DNA of 9,294 bases. Source: a virus. Lineage: Duplodnaviria > Heunggongvirae > Uroviricota > Caudoviricetes. How positions within the stretch are numbered: position 1 is the first letter of the stretch; each line of letters opens with the position of its first letter. Positions 1-6,364 of this stretch are shown here, piece after piece. Where the stretch lies: the IMG/VR virus record IMGVR_UViG_2695420698_000011; one strand, given 5' to 3'. A program made the translations under genes and the position numbers. The notes below the pieces were generated by a model. It was not told where the DNA came from. It did not search any database and saw nothing but the letters and a program-made list of their open reading frames with translations.

Positions 1-5
1 TGGTA

Positions 6-230
6 GTGTCCGCTATTGCCAGTACACCTCATCCATCACCGAAAAAAATTGGCTTTTACACCATTGGCGATAAAAGCATTTACCTGTATGACCTACGCCG
101 CATGGATGAAATCATGGAGGCTCTTGATAATCGTTCGTCGATGGATTGGTGTGTTGCTGTTCATGATATGAATGCAGGGTTTGATGAAAAGATTTTGTTC
201 CCCTCATCAGTTGAAAGCACTGCGGGTTAA
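6..230 (+). CDS. hypothetical phage protein (74 codons from GTG at 6; frame is open to the window edge, so the true start may lie upstream)
   Basis: Open frame from window start to TAA 228-230; sits directly upstream of a coupled gene string; no family recognised. Confidence 0.35.
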   Translation: MSAIASTPHPSPKKIGFYTIGDKSIYLYDLRRMDEIMEALDNRSSMDWCVAVHDMNAGFDEKILFPSSVESTAG

Positions 231-240
231 GGAGTAACAC

Positions 241-408
241 ATGACCACTATTACCAAAGAACGTATTGAATTGTTCATTAAAAACCCGCTTGAAAACGGG
301 CTTACCCGTGGTGAACAAATGGAACTGGCACGGATTGCGCTGGCATCGCTGGAAGCAGAGCCGGTTGTGTTCTGGTTTGAAAAATATCAAGAAGGGGCTA
401 CGGCATGA
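241..408 (+). CDS. small hypothetical phage protein, 55 aa
   Basis: ATG 241 preceded by AAGGAGT at 227-233; stop TGA 406-408 overlaps ATG 405 of the next gene (ATGA coupling). Below the 60-aa ORF-track cutoff, read by hand. Shares an IAL-SL-AEP motif with the next ORF. Confidence 0.5.
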
Positions 409-749
409 CGACTTTTACCAGAGAGCAGTTAATAGCTCACGCAGAGGAGACTATTGAAGCACAGAGACTGTGCATACCGGGCACAATCGACCATGACATC
501 ATCCGCACATATAAGATGGATATTGCTGTTCTGGAAATCGCACTGGTATCGCTGGCAGCAGAGCCAGCCGGTAAATTGCATGAATACAAACCAGTGGGAT
601 ATCAGCGTCTGGTCGATGAGTTAACCATGCTGGTAAAGCAGTTAACCTGGCAACTGAGGAAAGCGAAGCCAGACTGCAAATTACCGGATAAGGCGATGAG
701 TTATCTGGAGCGGAACGGACTGATAAGCGTGGAGGATATTTTACGATGA
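405..749 (+). CDS. hypothetical phage protein, 114 aa
   Basis: ORF track; ATG 405 with GAAGGGG upstream; stop overlaps next ATG at 746. N-terminus [15 protein letters not shown] resembles the N-terminus of the ORF at 3225. Confidence 0.55.
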
Positions 750-829
750 CCTGGCCTGAAGCATTAACAACGGTAGGAATTGCGATGGCGGTGGCGCTGG
801 TGGTGTATTCGATTTGCCGCTGGGGATAA
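746..829 (+). CDS. small hydrophobic peptide, 27 aa ([27 protein letters not shown]), possible membrane peptide
   Basis: ATG 746 overlaps stop of upstream gene (ATGA); GGAGGA at 729-734; one hydrophobic stretch. Hand-read, short, unverified. Confidence 0.3.
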
Positions 830-1040
830 AAACGGTTTGCGGGAAAAGGAGAGTTAAGTAGAATTGCAGCGGGTGCTTGAGGCTATCTGTCTCAGGCATG
901 AACACCAAAAGGCAGATAGAGAAAAGCCCCAGTTAACATTACGCGTCCGGCAAGACGCTTAACATTAATCTGAGGCTCAATCTATGAACGGCAAATCTAG
1001 GTTAGCCTCTTACGTGCCGAAAGGCAAGGAGAAGCAGGCT

Positions 1041-1196
1041 ATGAAGCAGCAAAAGGCGATGTTAATCGCCCTGATCGTCATCTGTTTAACCGTCATAGTG
1101 ACGGCACTGGTAACGAGGAAAGACCTCTGCGAGGTACGAATTCGAACCGGCCAGACGGAGGTCGCTGTCTTCACAGCTTACGAACCTGAGGAGTAA
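1041..1196 (+). CDS. hokD: Hok/Gef-family membrane toxin, 51 aa (HokD/RelF-like)
   Basis: Translation MKQQKAMLIALIVICLTVIVTALVTRKDLCEVRIRTGQTEVAVFTAYEPEE: N-terminal TM helix plus conserved Hok C-terminal region; matches my recollection of E. coli HokD/RelF. AAGGAG at 1027-1032, 8 nt before ATG 1041. The track ORF 984..1196 is an in-frame upstream extension. Confidence 0.8.
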   Translation: MKQQKAMLIALIVICLTVIVTALVTRKDLCEVRIRTGQTEVAVFTAYEPEE

Positions 1197-1266
1197 GAGA
1201 CCAGGCGGGGGAGAAATCCCTCGCCACCTCTGATGGGTCAGGCATCCTCAATGCACCCACACTTAA

Positions 1267-1290
1267 CCCGCTTCGGCGGGTTTTTGTTTT
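1267..1290 (+). terminator. rho-independent terminator after hok (CCCGC-TTCG-GCGGG plus T-run)
   Basis: GC stem 1267-1271/1276-1280 followed by TTTTTGTTTTT; preceded by a longer imperfect hairpin at about 1204-1225 that could be the hok mRNA 3' fold-back. Confidence 0.7.
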
Positions 1291-1416
1291 TATTTTCAAC
1301 GCGTTTGAAGTTTTAGATGGTGCCGGAATAGAATCAAAAATACTTAAGTAGCGCGCAGGGAGAAGAGGGATGGACCCCGAACAGGGGAGTGCTATTTATC
1401 TGGAAGGATTCTGTTG

Positions 1417-1698
1417 ATGAAAATCGAAGAATTACGTGAAATTTTTAGTGAAGATGGCCTCTATACTGTGCGCGTTGAGAATGGCGCTATTGTCAGCCAC
1501 TGCCTTCCAGACTACACAATTCTGATAATTCAGCCGTCTTTGCCAGCAGGCACGGGCGGCGCTCTCACGCATTTAAATCTGATTGGTACCAGCATCCCCC
1601 ATGCACTGAAGAACAGGCCGAATGGCTCATTCAGTGTTACCGCAGGCGCGGATGCGAGGTTAAAAAAGCCCTTAGCCTCGACTACCGTCACTGGATAA
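1417..1698 (+). CDS. hypothetical protein, 93 aa (rem-like by position between hokD and ydfU as I recall for the Qin prophage)
   Basis: ORF track (TTG 1414 / ATG 1417); AAGGA at 1404-1408, 8 nt before ATG. C-terminal half is low-complexity, so the 3' end may be unreliable. Assignment is by synteny only. Confidence 0.45.
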   Translation: MKIEELREIFSEDGLYTVRVENGAIVSHCLPDYTILIIQPSLPAGTGGALTHLNLIGTSIPHALKNRPNGSFSVTAGADARLKKPLASTTVTG

Positions 1699-1773
1699 TC
1701 TCCGTCAGGCTCCCTTACTCCGAACGGCCAACGCGTCCGTCCCGCACATTCCAGCAACGGATCTGGAGGTAAT

Positions 1774-2832
1774 GTGCGGGTATTACTTCGACCTGTTCTG
1801 GTACCGGAACTCGGTCTGGTTATCGTTAAGCCAGGCCGTGAATCAATGTCAGCATTCCATAACGGCAGAATACTGGTGGAGCCGGAACCAAAAAGCATGC
1901 GTAATCTGCCGTCCGGGGTCGTTCCTGCCGCTCGCCAGCCGCTGGTGGAAGACAAAACATTGCTGCCGTTTTTCAGTAACGCACGGGTGATTCGTGCTGC
2001 TGGTGGTGCTGGTGCATTGTCTGACTGGCTGTTGCGCCATATTAAATCCTGCCAGTGGCCACACGGCGATTATCATCACAGCGAAACCGTCATTCACCGT
2101 TATGGTACCGGCGCAATGGTGTTGTGCTGGCACTGCGACAACCAGCTGCGTGACCAGACATCCGAATCACTCGAGCAACTTGCTCATCAAAACCTGTCAG
2201 CATGGATGATTGACGTCATCGGTCACGCAATAAGCGGTACGCAGGAGCGTGAATTATCTCTGGCTGAATTATCCTGGTGGGCGGTCCGCAATCAGGTGGC
2301 GGACGCGCTACCGGAAGCGGTATTACGTCGTTCGCTGGGGTTGCGTGCGGAAAAAATTCGCTCTGTGTACAGTGAAAGCGACATCATACCGGGAGAGCAG
2401 ACAGCCACCAGCATACTGAAGCAGCGCACAAAAAATATTGCGTTACTGCCTCACGTCCACCAGCAACAGAACCCACCACAGGAAAAGACGGTGGTCAGCA
2501 TTGCCGTTGATCCGGAGTCACCGGCTCAGTATCTCCAGCGCCAGAAATCACAACGGGAAGAGATGCCTGTATACACGCGCTGGGTAAAAACGCAGAAATG
2601 CATGACGTGTGGCAATCAGGCAGATGATCCGCATCACATCATTGGTCATGGACTGGGAGGGATGGGAACAAAGGCTGATGATTTGTTTGTTATTCCGTTA
2701 TGCCGTAAATGCCGTAACGAACTACATGCCGGAGTAAAAGATTTTGAAGAGAAACACGGCAGTCAGCTGTTGTTGCTGATTCGTTTTTTAATGCACGCGA
2801 GAAATTCGGGTGTTCTGAAGTGGAAAGCATAA
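1774..2832 (+). CDS. ydfU: DUF968-family phage protein (YdfU-like), 352 aa, with C-terminal CxxC...HH...CxxC HNH-like zinc motif
   Basis: Long ORF; GGAGG at 1765-1769 (short spacing to GTG 1774, so start is uncertain). C-terminus KCMTCGNQADDPHHIIGHG...LCRKCRNELH looks like an HNH/zinc-ribbon nuclease fold. Lies upstream of rusA and Q as in Qin-like prophages. Confidence 0.75.
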   Translation: MRVLLRPVLVPELGLVIVKPGRESMSAFHNGRILVEPEPKSMRNLPSGVVPAARQPLVEDKTLLPFFSNARVIRAAGGAGALSDWLLRHIKSCQWPHGDYHHSETVIHRYGTGAMVLCWHCDNQLRDQTSESLEQLAHQNLSAWMIDVIGHAISGTQERELSLAELSWWAVRNQVADALPEAVLRRSLGLRAEKIRSVYSESDIIPGEQTATSILKQRTKNIALLPHVHQQQNPPQEKTVVSIAVDPESPAQYLQRQKSQREEMPVYTRWVKTQKCMTCGNQADDPHHIIGHGLGGMGTKADDLFVIPLCRKCRNELHAGVKDFEEKHGSQLLLLIRFLMHARNSGVLKWKA

Positions 2833-2926
2833 ATGACCGAGCGCATAGAATTTGTTTTACCTTACCCGCCGACGGTGAACACTTACTGGCGTCGTCGTGG
2901 CAGCACATATTTTGTATCAAAAGCCG
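2833..2926 (+). pseudogene. 5' fragment of a second rusA allele (MTERIEFVLPYPPTVNTYWRRRGSTYFVSKA), cut off by a 7-N gap
   Basis: ATG 2833 directly follows the ydfU stop (TAA 2830-2832); the 31 codons parallel the start of the intact rusA at 3467 (LPYPPTVNTYWRRR...YFVSKAG) with nucleotide differences; sequence ends at N 2927-2933. Confidence 0.6.
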
Positions 2927-2933
2927 NNNNNNN
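2927..2933. other. 7-nt N run (assembly gap/join)
   Basis: Literal n characters; sequence on either side is not contiguous in reading frame or content. Confidence 0.95.
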
Positions 2934-3037
2934 ACAATTGCGATCTTTTCCTGTGTGGTACGCCGTCTGCGTTTCTCCGGCCCTAAGACATCAATCATCT
3001 GTACTCCAATGACTAGTCTAAAAACTAGTATTAAGAC

Positions 3038-3057
3038 TATCACTTATTTAAGTGATA
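3038..3057. promoter_or_regulatory. perfect 9-2-9 palindrome TATCACTTA-TT-TAAGTGATA, candidate protein-binding (operator-like) site
   Basis: Arms are exact reverse complements; half-site TATCAC resembles lambdoid operator half-sites; preceded by two ACTAGT palindromes at 3012-3017 and 3024-3029. No U-tract follows, so it is unlikely to be a terminator. Confidence 0.3.
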
Positions 3058-3224
3058 CTGGTTGTCTGGAGATTCAGGGGGCCAGTCTACGGACATTTTC
3101 TGCCTGTGGACCAGGAAAGTGCACGGGTGCTTTCCACTCCCATGAAGCCCGGCAATCCGCGCAGATACAGTAATAAACGAACTGACAGCAGTAAGATGGA
3201 GCGTTTCTTTTGAACAACCAGACA

Positions 3225-3467
3225 ATGACTTTTACCCCTGAACAATTGCGTAAACACGCGCAGGAAATGCTGCGTCATGCTGAACAACTCGAAAAAACGG
3301 GCATAACAAAAGACGCTATCCGTAAAGATATGGTACCCGCGCTTCGGGAACTGATGCAGGCGAAGCATCGCGCACAGAAAGCAGTAGATGAGCTGGTGGA
3401 CTGTGTGGCAGAGCTGGAAACCAGAGTCGGAAAGTTTGAAAAACTGGTGCAGGAGGTGCTGCGCTGA
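3225..3467 (+). CDS. hypothetical small coiled-coil-like protein, 80 aa from ATG 3225 (the track starts at TTG 3210)
   Basis: ORF track; stop TGA 3465-3467 overlaps rusA ATG 3467; N-terminus MTFTPEQLRKHAQE is paralogous to the ORF at 405. No clear SD. Confidence 0.5.
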   Translation: MTFTPEQLRKHAQEMLRHAEQLEKTGITKDAIRKDMVPALRELMQAKHRAQKAVDELVDCVAELETRVGKFEKLVQEVLR

Positions 3468-3841
3468 TGCGCCATGAGTTTATTTTACCTTATCCGCCGA
3501 CGGTGAATACTTACTGGCGACGTCGTGACAACACATATTTTGTATCAAAAGCCGGTGAGCGTTATCGCCGGGATGTGGCGCTTATTGTCCGTCAGCAGCG
3601 ACTGAAATTAAGCCTGTCCGGAAGACTGGCGATAAAGATTATTGCAGAGCCACCGGATAAGCGCCGTCGTGACCTGGACAATATCCTGAAAGCACCACTG
3701 GATGCACTGACACATGCGGGAGTGTTAATGGACGATGAGCAGTTTGATGAAATCAATATCGTTCGTGGTCAGCCAGTATCTGGTGGACGTCTGGGGGTGA
3801 AGATTTACCCCATAATGCATGAAGAGCAGGTCAAAAAATGA
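3467..3841 (+). CDS. rusA: RusA-family Holliday junction resolvase, 124 aa
   Basis: Translation has the RusA hallmarks as I recall them (LPYPPTVNTYWRRR..., RRDLDNILKAPLDALT, GVLMDDEQF) and typical size; stop overlaps the Q start at 3838 (ATGA). Confidence 0.85.
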   Translation: MRHEFILPYPPTVNTYWRRRDNTYFVSKAGERYRRDVALIVRQQRLKLSLSGRLAIKIIAEPPDKRRRDLDNILKAPLDALTHAGVLMDDEQFDEINIVRGQPVSGGRLGVKIYPIMHEEQVKK

Positions 3842-4398
3842 AACTGGAAGATTTACCGAAATACTACTCCCCAAAATCCCCTTGCCTGACCGATGCATCG
3901 GCCTCAACGTCAAAAGATGCGCTGAGTATCACTGATGTGATGGCCGCGCAGGGCATGACACAGAATCGGGCTGAGATGGGGTTTTCTGCGTTCCTGGGGA
4001 AAATGGGCATCAGTATGAATGACAGGGCGCGGGCAACAGAATTACTGGCAGATTATGCACTCAGTCGGTGCGATCGTGTGGCGGCGTTGAGAAAACTTCC
4101 GGCAGAAATAAAACCGGTAGTGATGCGCATTATGGCTTCGTACGCTTTTGAGGATTATGCCCGCAGCGCAGCGAGTAAAAAGCAGTGCCCTTGTTGCTAT
4201 GGGGAAAAATTTATTGAAAGCGTAGTTTTTACAAACAAGGTCCAGTATCCGGATGGTAAGCCGCCGGTATGGGCAAAGTGTACGAAAGGTGTGTATCCGT
4301 CTTACTGGGAAGAATGGAAAAAAGTCAGGGAGGTGGTAAAAGTTGCCTGTCCGGAGTGTGGCGGAAAGGGTGAGNTTCCTTGGGAAAATGGGCATTAG
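3838..4398 (+). pseudogene. Q antiterminator copy A: N-terminal 179 codons intact to 4374, then frame runs through an ambiguous base (4375) into a diverged repeat
   Basis: ATG 3838 coupled to rusA stop; translation identical to the 4672..5427 ORF over the shared region up to CPECGGKGE; base 4375 is n and the downstream sequence restarts an internal part of the same gene. Confidence 0.6.
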
Positions 4399-4623
4399 TA
4401 TGAATGACAGAGAGCGGGCAACAGAATTGCTGACAGAATATGCACTCAGTCGGTGTGATCGCGTGGCGGCGTTAAGAAAACTCCCGGCAGAAATAAAACC
4501 GGCAGTGATGCGTATTATGGCTTCGTATGCGTTTGAAGATTATGCCCGTAGCGCGGCGAGCAAAAAACAGTGCCCCTGCTGTCACGGAAAAAAATTTATT
4601 GAAAGCGAGGTTTTTACAAACAA
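4376..4623 (+). repeat. diverged internal Q-gene fragment (copy B), bounded by single n at 4375 and 4624
   Basis: Aligns to 3991-4238 of copy A with scattered substitutions (protein ARATELLADY to ERATELLTEY, CYGEK to CHGKK); looks like an allele from another prophage. Confidence 0.7.
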
Positions 4624-4671
4624 NCCGATGCATCGGCCTCAACGTCAAAAGATGCGCTGAGTATCACTGAT

Positions 4672-5427
4672 GTGATGGCCGCGCAGGGCATGACACAGAA
4701 TCGGGCTGAGATGGGGTTTTCTGCGTTCCTGGGGAAAATGGGCATCAGTATGAATGACAGGGCGCGGGCAACAGAATTACTGGCAGATTATGCACTCAGT
4801 CGGTGCGATCGTGTGGCGGCGTTGAGAAAACTTCCGGCAGAAATAAAACCGGTAGTGATGCGCATTATGGCTTCGTACGCTTTTGAGGATTATGCCCGCA
4901 GCGCAGCGAGTAAAAAGCAGTGCCCTTGTTGCTATGGGGAAAAATTTATTGAAAGCGTAGTTTTTACAAACAAGGTCCAGTATCCGGATGGTAAGCCGCC
5001 GGTATGGGCAAAGTGTACGAAAGGTGTGTATCCGTCTTACTGGGAAGAATGGAAAAAAGTCAGGGAGGTGGTAAAAGTTGCCTGTCCGGAGTGTGGCGGA
5101 AAGGGTGAGGTTTCCACCGCCTGTAAGGATTGCCGTGGGCGTGGTGTCGCCATTCATCGTGAAGAGTCGGTAAAACGTGGTATGCCTGTTATCAGAGACT
5201 GCCAGCGTTGTGGTGGTCGTGGCTATGAAAGACTACCATCAACGGAGGCATTTAATGCTATATGCGAGGTGACAAACCAGATAACACGCGCGTCATGGGA
5301 AAAAACAGTTAAGAAATTCTATGATGCGCTGGTGACTCGGTTTGATATTGAAGAAGCATGGGCTGAGCGGCAGTTAAAAAAGGTAACTAGGTTGATTTTT
5401 CCGGAATCTGTGGTAAATTCGTCATAA
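4672..5427 (+). CDS. Q-like late antiterminator, 251 aa ORF (copy C), with four CxxCxGxG-type zinc-finger repeats
   Basis: Intact ORF to TAA 5425-5427 immediately upstream of a lambda-like PR'/pause element; sequence from 4625 repeats copy A 3888-4374 exactly as far as I can read. The authentic protein probably starts at ATG 3838 (about 283 aa if the duplication is artifactual). Family call rests on position and size. Confidence 0.7.
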   Translation: MMAAQGMTQNRAEMGFSAFLGKMGISMNDRARATELLADYALSRCDRVAALRKLPAEIKPVVMRIMASYAFEDYARSAASKKQCPCCYGEKFIESVVFTNKVQYPDGKPPVWAKCTKGVYPSYWEEWKKVREVVKVACPECGGKGEVSTACKDCRGRGVAIHREESVKRGMPVIRDCQRCGGRGYERLPSTEAFNAICEVTNQITRASWEKTVKKFYDALVTRFDIEEAWAERQLKKVTRLIFPESVVNSS

Positions 5428-5431
5428 CGAT
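5392..5431 (+). promoter_or_regulatory. PR'-like late promoter with sigma70-dependent pause element (-35 TTGATT, extended -10 TGgTAAATT, then AACGATGGG at about +1..+9)
   Basis: TTGATT 5392-5397, 16-nt spacer, TAAATT 5414-5419 preceded by TG, then 6 nt and AACGAT 5426-5431. This matches my recollection of lambda PR' (GGGTAAATT-6nt-AACGATGGG). Confidence 0.65.
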
Positions 5432-5466
5432 GGGCGTTTTATGCCTGACGTTAGAAGAGTTTCTAC

Positions 5467-5490
5467 AACCCGCCGCCGAGCGGGTTTTTT
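5467..5490 (+). terminator. rho-independent terminator (tR'-like): AACCCGC-CGCCGA-GCGGGTT plus TTTTTT
   Basis: GC stem 5469-5473/5480-5484 with a 6-T run 5485-5490, about 40-65 nt downstream of the proposed PR' start. Confidence 0.75.
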
Positions 5491-5610
5491 ATGACTGAAA
5501 TCGCGTCAGTACAGTAAACGCGCTGGTGGCGGTGAATACCTGTCTTTCAGCTTGCTGGCTTTTTCGACAAGAGTTATTGGTGTGTCACGTTAACCGGAAA
5601 AGGAAAAGAC

Positions 5611-5808
5611 ATGCTAAAACAGCAGGATATGACAGAAACCGCCAGAGTGGTGTTTAATGAATTAAGCGTTACCGAACCGGCGACAGTCGGGGAGATAGCG
5701 CAGAATACTTACCTTTCACGCGAACGCTGCCAGTTAATACTGACCCAGCTGGTTATGGCGGGTCTGGCAGACTATCAGTTCGGTTGTTACAGACGCCTTC
5801 CGCAGTGA
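5611..5808 (+). CDS. small winged-helix-like DNA-binding protein, 65 aa
   Basis: ORF track; AAGGA 5600-5604, 6 nt before ATG 5611; segment ATVGEIAQNTYLSRERCQLILTQLVMAGLADY looks like an HTH recognition helix plus wing; stop lies inside a terminator hairpin. Confidence 0.55.
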   Translation: MLKQQDMTETARVVFNELSVTEPATVGEIAQNTYLSRERCQLILTQLVMAGLADYQFGCYRRLPQ

Positions 5809-5820
5809 AGGCTTTTTTAT
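5795..5820 (+). terminator. rho-independent terminator: GCCTTC-CGCAGT-GAAGGC plus TTTTTTATTT
   Basis: Perfect 6-bp GC-rich stem with the stop codon in the loop, followed by a T-run. Confidence 0.7.
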
Positions 5821-5866
5821 TTGTGGTAAATGGGCGGCTGGTGGGTGTTAGGGGCACCCACCAGCC

Positions 5867-6364
5867 NNNNNNNNNNNNNNNNNNNNNNNNNNNNNNNNNN
5901 NNNNNNNNNNNNNNNNNNNNNNNNNNNNNNNNNNNNNNNNNNNNNNNNNNNNNNNNNNNNNNNNNNNNNNNNNNNNNNNNNNNNNNNNNNNNNNNNNNNN
6001 NNNNNNNNNNNNNNNNNNNNNNNNNNNNNNNNNNNNNNNNNNNNNNNNNNNNNNNNNNNNNNNNNNNNNNNNNNNNNNNNNNNNNNNNNNNNNNNNNNNN
6101 NNNNNNNNNNNNNNNNNNNNNNNNNNNNNNNNNNNNNNNNNNNNNNNNNNNNNNNNNNNNNNNNNNNNNNNNNNNNNNNNNNNNNNNNNNNNNNNNNNNN
6201 NNNNNNNNNNNNNNNNNNNNNNNNNNNNNNNNNNNNNNNNNNNNNNNNNNNNNNNNNNNNNNNNNNNNNNNNNNNNNNNNNNNNNNNNNNNNNNNNNNNN
6301 NNNNNNNNNNNNNNNNNNNNNNNNNNNNNNNNNNNNNNNNNNNNNNNNNNNNNNNNNNNNNNNN
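5867..6364. other. 498-nt N run (masked or unsequenced)
   Basis: Literal n characters; hides the 5' part of the methyltransferase gene and anything between the terminator and that gene. Confidence 0.95.

What the first reader, a model, noticed from the sequence alone, without database searches (positions are those of the whole stretch)
2833..3467. Truncated second rusA allele abutting a 7-N join; two nin-region variants spliced together
ydfU is followed immediately by a rusA start (2833..2926) that breaks off at NNNNNNN. After about 290 nt of unrelated sequence and a small ORF, an intact but diverged rusA begins at 3467. One prophage variant therefore has ydfU-rusA directly coupled, while the other has small ORF-rusA-Q. 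The window appears chimeric between at least two lambdoid prophages.
Basis: seen in the sequence. Interest (0 to 1): 0.5.

Follow-up and report, generated by a model that had tools for sequence, protein, structure and literature searches.

The report
Scaffold join between two prophage copies
The "truncated rusA" is the end of one assembly contig glued by seven Ns to a contig from a second, similar prophage that lies about 670 kb away in finished Shigella sonnei genomes, so it is an assembly artefact and not a biological junction.

Summary
The first 94 nt of a rusA gene (2833-2926) follow ydfU/DUF968 and stop at NNNNNNN (2927-2933). An intact 124-aa rusA starts at 3467.

- **Left flank:** 1-2926 is 100% identical to "prophage A" of closed Shigella sonnei genomes (hokD-DUF968-rusA126-Q273-methylase). 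There the rusA is intact in 10 of 10 loci.
- **Right flank:** 2934-4374 is 100% identical to "prophage B" (IS2 remnant, 3' end of a helicase gene, 85-aa ORF, rusA124, Q284). It starts exactly where an IS21 copy ends in those genomes.
- **Distance:** A and B lie about 670 kb apart in the same chromosomes.
- **Rest of the window:** it shows the same pattern. Single-N joins at 4375 and 4624 bracket a 248-nt A-allele Q fragment, set between two 100%-identical 485-nt copies of the B-allele Q. Every N-free 100-nt tile matches A or B perfectly.

The "unrelated ~290 nt" is 157 nt of an IS2 end plus the last 123 nt of a dnaB-type helicase gene. There is nothing novel here, and interest is low.

The parts
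1774..2832 (+). ydfU-like DUF968 gene (352 aa) of prophage A
   Evidence: Pfam DUF968, 210 bits. The exact protein is found in closed S. sonnei chromosomes, always followed by an intact rusA.
2833..2926 (+). First 94 nt (31 codons) of the prophage-A rusA allele (126 aa when complete), cut off by the end of a contig
   Evidence: Window 1-2926 is 100% identical to L006 6228-9153. In 10 of 10 closed loci the sequence continues GGGAGCGTTATCGCC... into an intact 126-aa RusA.
2927..2933 (.). 7-N scaffold join between a prophage-A contig and a prophage-B contig
   Evidence: The flanks map to loci about 670 kb apart in CP104423.1 and CBDDMI010000001.1.
2934..3090 (-). Terminal 157 nt of an IS2 copy, including the first 21 codons of its first ORF (2998 down to 2936). 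The contig begins where an IS21 copy interrupts this IS2 in closed genomes.
   Evidence: 100% identical to sequence annotated as IS2 family transposase in many E. coli records. IS21 matches end, and IS2 matches begin, at the position equivalent to window 2934.
3091..3213 (+). Last 123 nt, with the TGA stop, of a dnaB-type replicative helicase gene of prophage B. The gene is truncated by the IS2 insertion.
   Evidence: Annotated as replicative DNA helicase under the match in E. coli genomes. Window 3091 corresponds to L004 9001, and the CDS ends at L004 9123.
3210..3467 (+). 85-aa ORF of unknown function, upstream of rusA in prophage B
   Evidence: Annotated as a hypothetical protein (WP_001064800.1). 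No Pfam match above cut-off.
3467..3841 (+). Intact prophage-B rusA (124 aa), a Holliday-junction resolvase family member
   Evidence: Pfam RusA 61.3 bits. 1Q8R 80 bits, with D69/D71/D90 aligned to D70/D72/D91. The exact protein occurs in closed S. sonnei genomes.
3838..4374 (+). First 537 nt of the prophage-B antiterminator Q gene, up to the end of contig 2
   Evidence: Pfam Antiterm 78.9 bits. 100% identical to L016.
4375..4624 (+). A 248-nt prophage-A allele fragment of Q (4376-4623), bracketed by single-N joins at 4375 and 4624
   Evidence: 100% identical to L006 9590-9837 and 88% to the flanking B allele.
4625..5109 (+). Exact 485-nt repeat of 3890-4374: an unmerged overlap of two contigs
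   Evidence: 100% identity over 485 nt.

Best explanation
The window is a short scaffold from a draft assembly of a Shigella sonnei-like genome. In it, contigs from two paralogous, IS-riddled lambdoid prophage remnants have been strung together. Contig 1 (1-2926) is prophage A: hokD, rem-like gene, DUF968/ydfU, and the start of rusA. It ends 94 nt into rusA, inside the first 24-nt stretch that the A and B rusA alleles share exactly. Contig 2 (2934-4374) is prophage B. It starts at the edge of a multi-copy IS21 element that sits inside an IS2 copy. It then runs through the IS2 end, the 3' remnant of a helicase gene, an 85-aa ORF, an intact rusA and the first two thirds of Q. The seven Ns are a scaffolder's gap, not seven unread bases of one molecule. 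In the real chromosome the A rusA is complete and is followed by its own Q, and the B locus lies roughly 670 kb away. Shown here: the identity of each flank, their separation in closed genomes, the intactness of rusA-A there, and the redundancy at the other N joins. Inferred: that the source strain has the same arrangement as the closed genomes, and that both prophage-specific left arms were linked to the same shared downstream sequence and so were placed in series.
For: (1) Window 1-2926 is 100% identical to prophage A in closed genomes, and 2934-4374 (1441 nt) is 100% identical to prophage B. Contig 2 is found as an exact string in 8 of 10 B loci.
(2) Both loci occur in the same chromosomes, about 671 kb apart in CP104423.1 and about 666 kb apart in CBDDMI010000001.1, in the same orientation. 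HE616528.1 and CP019689 are S. sonnei 53G and 75/02.
(3) In 10 of 10 closed A loci the sequence after ...AAAGCCG continues as an intact 126-aa rusA and a 273-aa Q.
(4) Contig 2 starts at the IS21/IS2 boundary. IS21 matches in E. coli genomes stop, and IS2 matches start, within 5 nt of that point, and all the closed B loci that hold contig 2 have the IS21 end there.
(5) Contig 1 stops 1 nt before the end of a 24-nt stretch shared exactly by both alleles, just before the next A/B SNP.
(6) The same artefact recurs. 3890-4374 equals 4625-5109 at 100% over 485 nt, and the two copies are separated by N + a 248-nt A-allele Q fragment + N.
(7) Every N-free 100-nt tile of the window is 100/100 identical to A or to B.
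(8) None of 5,426 complete E. coli genomes holds 2934-3466 as one piece, and none holds rusA nt 1-94 next to IS2. The junction pattern with 7 free bases is absent from 185,579 species-representative genomes.
Against: No reads or long-read data of the source assembly were available, so adjacency in the source strain cannot be excluded directly. The source record itself was not identified. A gap estimate of 7 is not what simple geometry predicts: on prophage-A coordinates contig 2 overlaps contig 1, so the scaffolder's logic is not reconstructed. Two N-free contigs (4625-5866 and 6365-8120) switch between A and B inside identical stretches. These switches could be chimeric contigs, but they could also be real gene conversion in the source strain. 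The source may therefore not be identical to the closed genomes.
Confidence: 0.93

Rival explanations
1. The junction is real. In the source strain an IS-mediated rearrangement or deletion fused prophage A, inside rusA, to the IS2/IS21 cluster upstream of prophage B. This left a truly truncated rusA next to a second intact one, and the 7 Ns are a few unresolved bases.
For: S. sonnei prophage remnants are full of IS1, IS2, IS21 and IS3-family copies, and IS-mediated rearrangements are common in Shigella (general knowledge). A and B lie in the same orientation, so a deletion between them is geometrically possible.
Against: The join abuts an internal point of IS2, 157 nt from its end, and not an IS terminus. 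That point is exactly where IS21 continues in closed genomes, as expected for a contig break at a repeat. A fusion would delete about 670 kb of chromosome. The A-allele Q fragment (4376-4623) and the A-type methylase and tRNA segments are present in the same scaffold, so the part of prophage A downstream of rusA still exists. The other N joins are demonstrably redundant overlaps.
Confidence: 0.03
2. The two alleles come from two different strains, through a mixed culture or contamination. Each strain would carry one variant at the same locus, rather than one genome carrying two loci.
For: Interleaved alleles with short alternative contigs can also arise from mixed samples (general knowledge).
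Against: Both variants are present together, at different loci, in single closed S. sonnei chromosomes. No second strain is needed. Both sets of segments are 100% identical to those loci.
Confidence: 0.02
3. The N runs are masks laid over otherwise contiguous real sequence, so the flanks are truly adjacent in one molecule.
For: Some collections mask stretches with N, as the tool description for genome contigs states.
Against: The flanks of the 7-N run and of both single Ns are not collinear in any closed genome examined: A 9153 | B 5468; B 6908 | A 9590; A 9837 | B 6424. A mask cannot create a 485-nt exact duplication around a 248-nt alternative allele. The 498-N run replaces 385 nt of prophage A (L006 10739-11123), so N lengths are estimates and not masks.
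Confidence: 0.02

Closest known systems
Scaffold misjoin or collapsed-repeat artefact in short-read draft assemblies of IS- and prophage-rich enterobacterial genomes
   Same: There are N runs at contig joins, and contig ends fall at repeat edges (the IS21 edge, and a stretch shared exactly by both alleles). Unmerged identical overlaps and short alternative-allele contigs are interleaved. The flanks are non-collinear in finished genomes.
   Different: Nothing distinguishes it from the ordinary case. Only the read-level proof is missing.
RusA Holliday-junction resolvase of lambdoid prophages (E. coli DLP12 rusA, PDB 1Q8R/2H8C), in the nin region upstream of Q
   Same: The intact copy (3467-3841) matches Pfam RusA and the solved E. 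coli RusA, with the three acidic residues aligned. It sits directly upstream of, and overlaps, an antiterminator Q gene, as in other lambdoid prophages.
   Different: It is 124 aa rather than 120 aa, and only moderately similar to K-12 RusA (80 bits). The 31-codon piece at 2833 lacks all catalytic residues, but it is only a contig end.
Qin-type nin region, hokD-rem-ydfU (DUF968)-rusA-Q, as in many E. coli prophages (e.g. strains MLI121 and TUM10008)
   Same: Gene order is the same and identity is 96-97% over DUF968-rusA-Q. Prophage A of S. sonnei is a member of this group.
   Different: In the window the A-type rusA 3' part and most of the A-type Q are missing, because they were not assembled or placed.
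Helicase-85-aa ORF-rusA-Q nin region, as in E. coli FDAARGOS_944
   Same: 99.8% identity over 1284 nt as one contiguous piece.
   Different: In the S. sonnei copy the helicase gene is cut 123 nt before its stop by IS2, which is itself interrupted by IS21.

Membership tests
Scaffold join / assembly artefact | An N run lies exactly at the discontinuity | tested here: met
   NNNNNNN at 2927-2933.
Scaffold join / assembly artefact | The two flanks are not adjacent in finished genomes of the same lineage, and each continues differently there | tested here: met
   The left flank continues as intact rusA-A in 10 of 10 loci. The right flank is preceded by IS21 in all 8 closed B loci that hold contig 2 as an exact string (8 of 10 examined). 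The loci are about 670 kb apart.
Scaffold join / assembly artefact | Contig ends coincide with repeat boundaries | tested here: met
   Contig 2 starts at the IS21 edge. Contig 1 ends inside the 24-nt stretch shared exactly by the two rusA alleles.
Scaffold join / assembly artefact | Redundant or overlapping sequence lies on both sides of other joins in the same record | tested here: met
   3890-4374 equals 4625-5109 at 100%, and a 248-nt alternative allele sits between single Ns.
Scaffold join / assembly artefact | No read or read pair spans the join | not testable with these tools
   Reads of the source assembly are not available.
RusA family (PF05866): intact copy 3467-3841 | Full-length match to the family profile above the curated cut-off | tested here: met
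   61.3 bits against a cut-off of 22.8, profile positions 1-123 of 124.
RusA family (PF05866): intact copy 3467-3841 | Conserved acidic residues corresponding to D70, D72 and D91 of E. coli RusA. That these are the catalytic residues is recalled from the literature. | tested here: met
   The alignment to 1Q8R places RRRDLDN and DD opposite the same residues of the solved protein. Their catalytic role was not checked in a paper here.
RusA family: fragment 2833-2926 | Holds the catalytic core | tested here: not met
   Only 31 codons are present and there is no Pfam hit. They are identical to the N-terminus of the intact 126-aa protein of closed genomes. The fragment is a contig end, not a gene.
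Real IS-mediated junction | The junction lies at an IS terminus, with or without a target-site duplication | tested here: not met
   The join abuts IS2 157 nt inside its end. The true IS2 terminus is at 3090/3091, against the helicase remnant.

The most novel reading that the evidence does not exclude
The source strain really carries hybrid A/B prophage segments made by homologous recombination or gene conversion between its two prophage remnants. The B-to-A switch within 5338-5428 and the A-to-B switch within tRNA-Arg(tct) at 7344-7412 lie inside N-free contigs. If those switches are real, some of the mosaic would be biological even though the 7-N join itself is an artefact.
Probability: 0.08. 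Interest if true: 0.12.

Novelty: not a real feature. Interest (0 to 1): 0.04.

Why it matters
It matters only for annotation quality. An annotator working on this record would call a truncated rusA pseudogene, a duplicated or fragmented Q gene and a tandem pair of nin regions, none of which exist in the chromosome. The underlying biology is already visible in finished genomes: two IS-degraded lambdoid prophage remnants in S. sonnei, each with its own rusA-Q module. The case shows that short N runs (1-7 N) in draft scaffolds of Shigella and E. coli can hide joins between loci hundreds of kilobases apart.

Tried and rejected
- **Junction scans.** I scanned the species-representative genome collection for the IS2/helicase junction and for the rusA-N7-IS2 junction with seven free bases. 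Both gave no hits. That collection holds one genome per species, so it does not hold the source, and the negative result is weak.
- **IS between DUF968 and Q in complete E. coli genomes.** H3 and H4 have an IS3-family element, but it lies inside Q and not at rusA, so it is irrelevant.
- **Pfam on the short pieces.** The 31-aa rusA start, the 40-aa helicase tail and the 21-aa IS2 ORF start gave nothing. They are too short, and their identity rests on DNA matches instead.
- **IS21 insertion signature.** I looked for a clean IS21 insertion inside IS2, with an inverted repeat of the right end and a target duplication. I found none. Only 39 nt separate IS2-derived sequence from the istA ATG, so the left junction is irregular. 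I did not pursue this.
- **Assembler and k-mer size.** I tried to infer them from where contigs end. Contig 1 fits a break at a shared 23/24-mer, but the 248-nt contig (4376-4623) starts and ends between SNPs. No single model fits, and I make no claim.
- **Metagenome scan.** I did not run it. S. sonnei isolate junctions are unlikely to be there, and the result would not change the verdict.

Full report
**1. What the sequence shows**

The 352-aa ORF at 1774-2832 is a DUF968/ydfU-type protein (Pfam PF06147, 210 bits). Its TAA stop is followed directly by an ATG at 2833 and 94 nt that encode MTERIEFVLPYPPTVNTYWRRRGSTYFVSKA. The sequence then becomes NNNNNNN at 2927-2933.

An intact 124-aa ORF at 3467-3841 is a RusA family protein. 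Pfam gives 61.3 bits against a cut-off of 22.8. It scores 80 bits to the solved E. coli RusA 1Q8R, with RRRDLDN and DD aligned to the same residues of that protein. The two 5' ends are 91% identical over 79 nt, E = 7e-27.

The window has five further N runs: 1 N at 4375, 1 N at 4624, 498 N at 5867-6364, 122 N at 8121-8242 and 580 N at 8613-9192.

**2. What lies between the two rusA starts**

- 2934-3090 is 100% identical to the end of IS2. It is annotated as "IS3-like element IS2 family transposase" in thousands of E. coli records. The first 21 codons of the IS2 first ORF read on the minus strand from 2998.
- 3091-3213 is the last 123 nt, including the TGA stop, of a dnaB-type "replicative DNA helicase" gene.
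- 3210-3467 is an 85-aa hypothetical ORF that overlaps the helicase stop.

In E. coli FDAARGOS_944, helicase, 85-aa ORF, rusA and Q are one contiguous piece, 99.8% identical to window 3091-4374. The right flank is therefore a natural nin-region architecture, here with IS2 inserted in the helicase gene.

**3. Where the two flanks come from**

Exact-sequence look-ups of the DUF968 protein and of the 124-aa RusA both land in closed chromosomes of 4.8-4.9 Mb. Among them, HE616528.1 is Shigella sonnei 53G and CP019689 is S. sonnei 75/02 (PMC5447701).

"Prophage A" has this order: IS, small ORFs, hokD, rem-like ORF, DUF968, rusA (126 aa), Q (273 aa), 65-aa ORF, N6/N4 methyltransferase, tRNAs, IS. 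Window 1-2926 is 100% identical to it (L006 6228-9153).

"Prophage B" has this order: IS2 interrupted by IS21 (istA/istB), helicase remnant, 85-aa ORF, rusA (124 aa), Q (284 aa) and onwards. Window 2934-4374 is 100% identical to it over 1441 nt (L016 5468-6908). It is present as an exact string in 8 of 10 such loci.

In the two assemblies that appear in both look-ups, the loci are about 671 kb apart (CP104423.1) and about 666 kb apart (CBDDMI010000001.1), in the same orientation.

**4. Why the contigs end where they do**

In 10 of 10 closed A loci, the bases after the last base of contig 1 (...TATCAAAAGCCG) are GGGAGCGTTATCGCC..., that is, an intact 126-aa rusA. Contig 1 stops 1 nt before the end of a 24-nt stretch (CACATATTTTGTATCAAAAGCCGG) that the A and B alleles share exactly, immediately before the next A/B difference. 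This is the first shared stretch of 20 nt or more reached when walking from the A-specific ydfU into rusA.

Contig 2 begins at ACAATTGCG. In every closed B locus that holds it, this is preceded by ...CATCGTGGCGTTGAC, the end of an IS21 copy. In E. coli genomes, IS21 matches stop and IS2 matches start within 5 nt of that point. Both contig ends are thus at repeat boundaries, as expected for short-read contigs. Neither is at an IS terminus, as a real IS-mediated junction would require.

**5. The same artefact elsewhere in the window**

3890-4374 and 4625-5109 are 100% identical over 485 nt. Between them sit N, a 248-nt piece and N. The 248-nt piece is 100% identical to the prophage-A Q allele (L006 9590-9837) and only 88% identical to the B allele on either side. 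No functional or plausible natural structure has Q(1-537), Q'(154-401), Q(53-end). It is an unmerged overlap of two B contigs with an A contig slotted in.

I painted the window in 100-nt tiles. Every N-free tile is 100/100 identical to A or to B:
- A for 1-2926
- B for 2934-4374
- A for 4376-4623
- B then A for 4625-5866
- A then B for 6365-8120
- A for 8243-8612

The last N-free segment, 9193-9294, fell outside the tile grid. A separate BLAST shows it is 100% identical to B (L016 8762-8863).

The two within-contig switches fall inside stretches identical in both prophages. One is 5338-5428. The other is 7344-7412, which is tRNA-Arg(tct). The 498-N run replaces 385 nt of prophage A (L006 10739-11123), so N lengths are estimates and not masks.

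**6. Explanation**

The window is a small scaffold in which contigs of two paralogous prophage remnants were linearised one after another. The rusA-Q modules of the two remnants are 92.5% identical, with long identical stretches. The likely cause, which is inferred, is that both prophage-specific left arms link to the same shared downstream sequence.

The 7-N run is a contig join. The "truncated rusA" is an intact gene cut by a contig end. The "two nin variants spliced together" are two loci about 670 kb apart. I put this at 0.93.

Three rivals are each at 0.03 or below: a real IS-mediated fusion, a mixed culture, and masked but contiguous sequence. The reasons are that the join is internal to IS2, that downstream A-type segments are still present in the scaffold, that both loci coexist in single closed chromosomes, and that the flanks of all short N runs are non-collinear.

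**7. Limits**

The source record and its reads were not available, so adjacency in the source strain is excluded by inference and not directly. Scans for the two junctions in the species-representative genome collection found nothing, but that collection would not be expected to contain the source. I could not reconstruct the assembler or the reason for a gap estimate of exactly 7.

**8. Comparison with what is known, and verdict**

All components are well known:
- a RusA resolvase upstream of Q in lambdoid nin regions
- the Qin-type hokD-rem-ydfU module, 96-97% identical in many E. coli
- IS2 and IS21
- the IS-degraded prophages of S. sonnei

The junction itself is not a biological feature. 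Novelty: not a real feature. Interest: 0.04.

Noticed in passing
window 3838-5427 (N at 4375 and 4624): The antiterminator Q gene is represented three times. B allele nt 1-537 comes first, then a 248-nt A-allele fragment between single Ns, then the B allele again from nt 53 to the stop. 3890-4374 and 4625-5109 are 100% identical. This is an unmerged contig overlap plus an interleaved paralogous contig.
   Followed up: yes
window 4625-5866: This N-free contig carries B-specific variants up to 5337 and A-specific variants from 5429 on. The switch lies in a 91-nt stretch identical in both prophages. It is either a chimeric contig or real gene conversion in the source strain.
   Followed up: partly
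window 6365-8120: This N-free contig is 100% prophage A (methyltransferase 3' part and tRNAs) up to about 7343 and 100% prophage B from about 7413. The switch lies inside tRNA-Arg(tct) at 7344-7420.
   Followed up: partly
window 7171-7420 and 8257-8333: There is a prophage tRNA cluster downstream of Q and the methylase: tRNA with anticodon CAT (ARAGORN calls it Met; RefSeq annotates the homologous gene as tRNA-Ile), tRNA-Arg(tcg) and tRNA-Arg(tct). A second tRNA-Arg(tct) at 8257-8333 belongs to the interleaved prophage-A contig.
   Followed up: partly
window 5784-7130 (N run 5867-6364): An N6/N4 DNA methyltransferase gene is interrupted by 498 Ns. The corresponding stretch in closed prophage A is only 385 nt (L006 10739-11123), so the gap sizes in this record are estimates.
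   Followed up: partly
window 1-31: The first 31 nt match, in reverse orientation, two other places in the prophage-B loci next to IS3-family transposase genes (L016 1000-970 and 9246-9216). In closed genomes an IS3-family element ends just upstream of the position equivalent to window 1. The window therefore starts at an IS edge, consistent with the whole window being a short scaffold bounded by repeats.
   Followed up: partly
L016 3380-3440 and 5400-5470 (closed S. sonnei prophage B): The IS21 copy that interrupts IS2 has an irregular left junction. Only about 39 nt separate IS2-derived sequence from the istA start codon, and no inverted copy of the right end was found. The IS21 left end, and possibly some IS2 sequence, seems to be deleted.
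   Followed up: no
window 984-1196 and 1414-1698: A hokD (Hok/Gef family toxin) ORF and a rem-like ORF lie upstream of ydfU. This is the typical Qin-type module. It is identical to closed S. sonnei prophage A.
   Followed up: no
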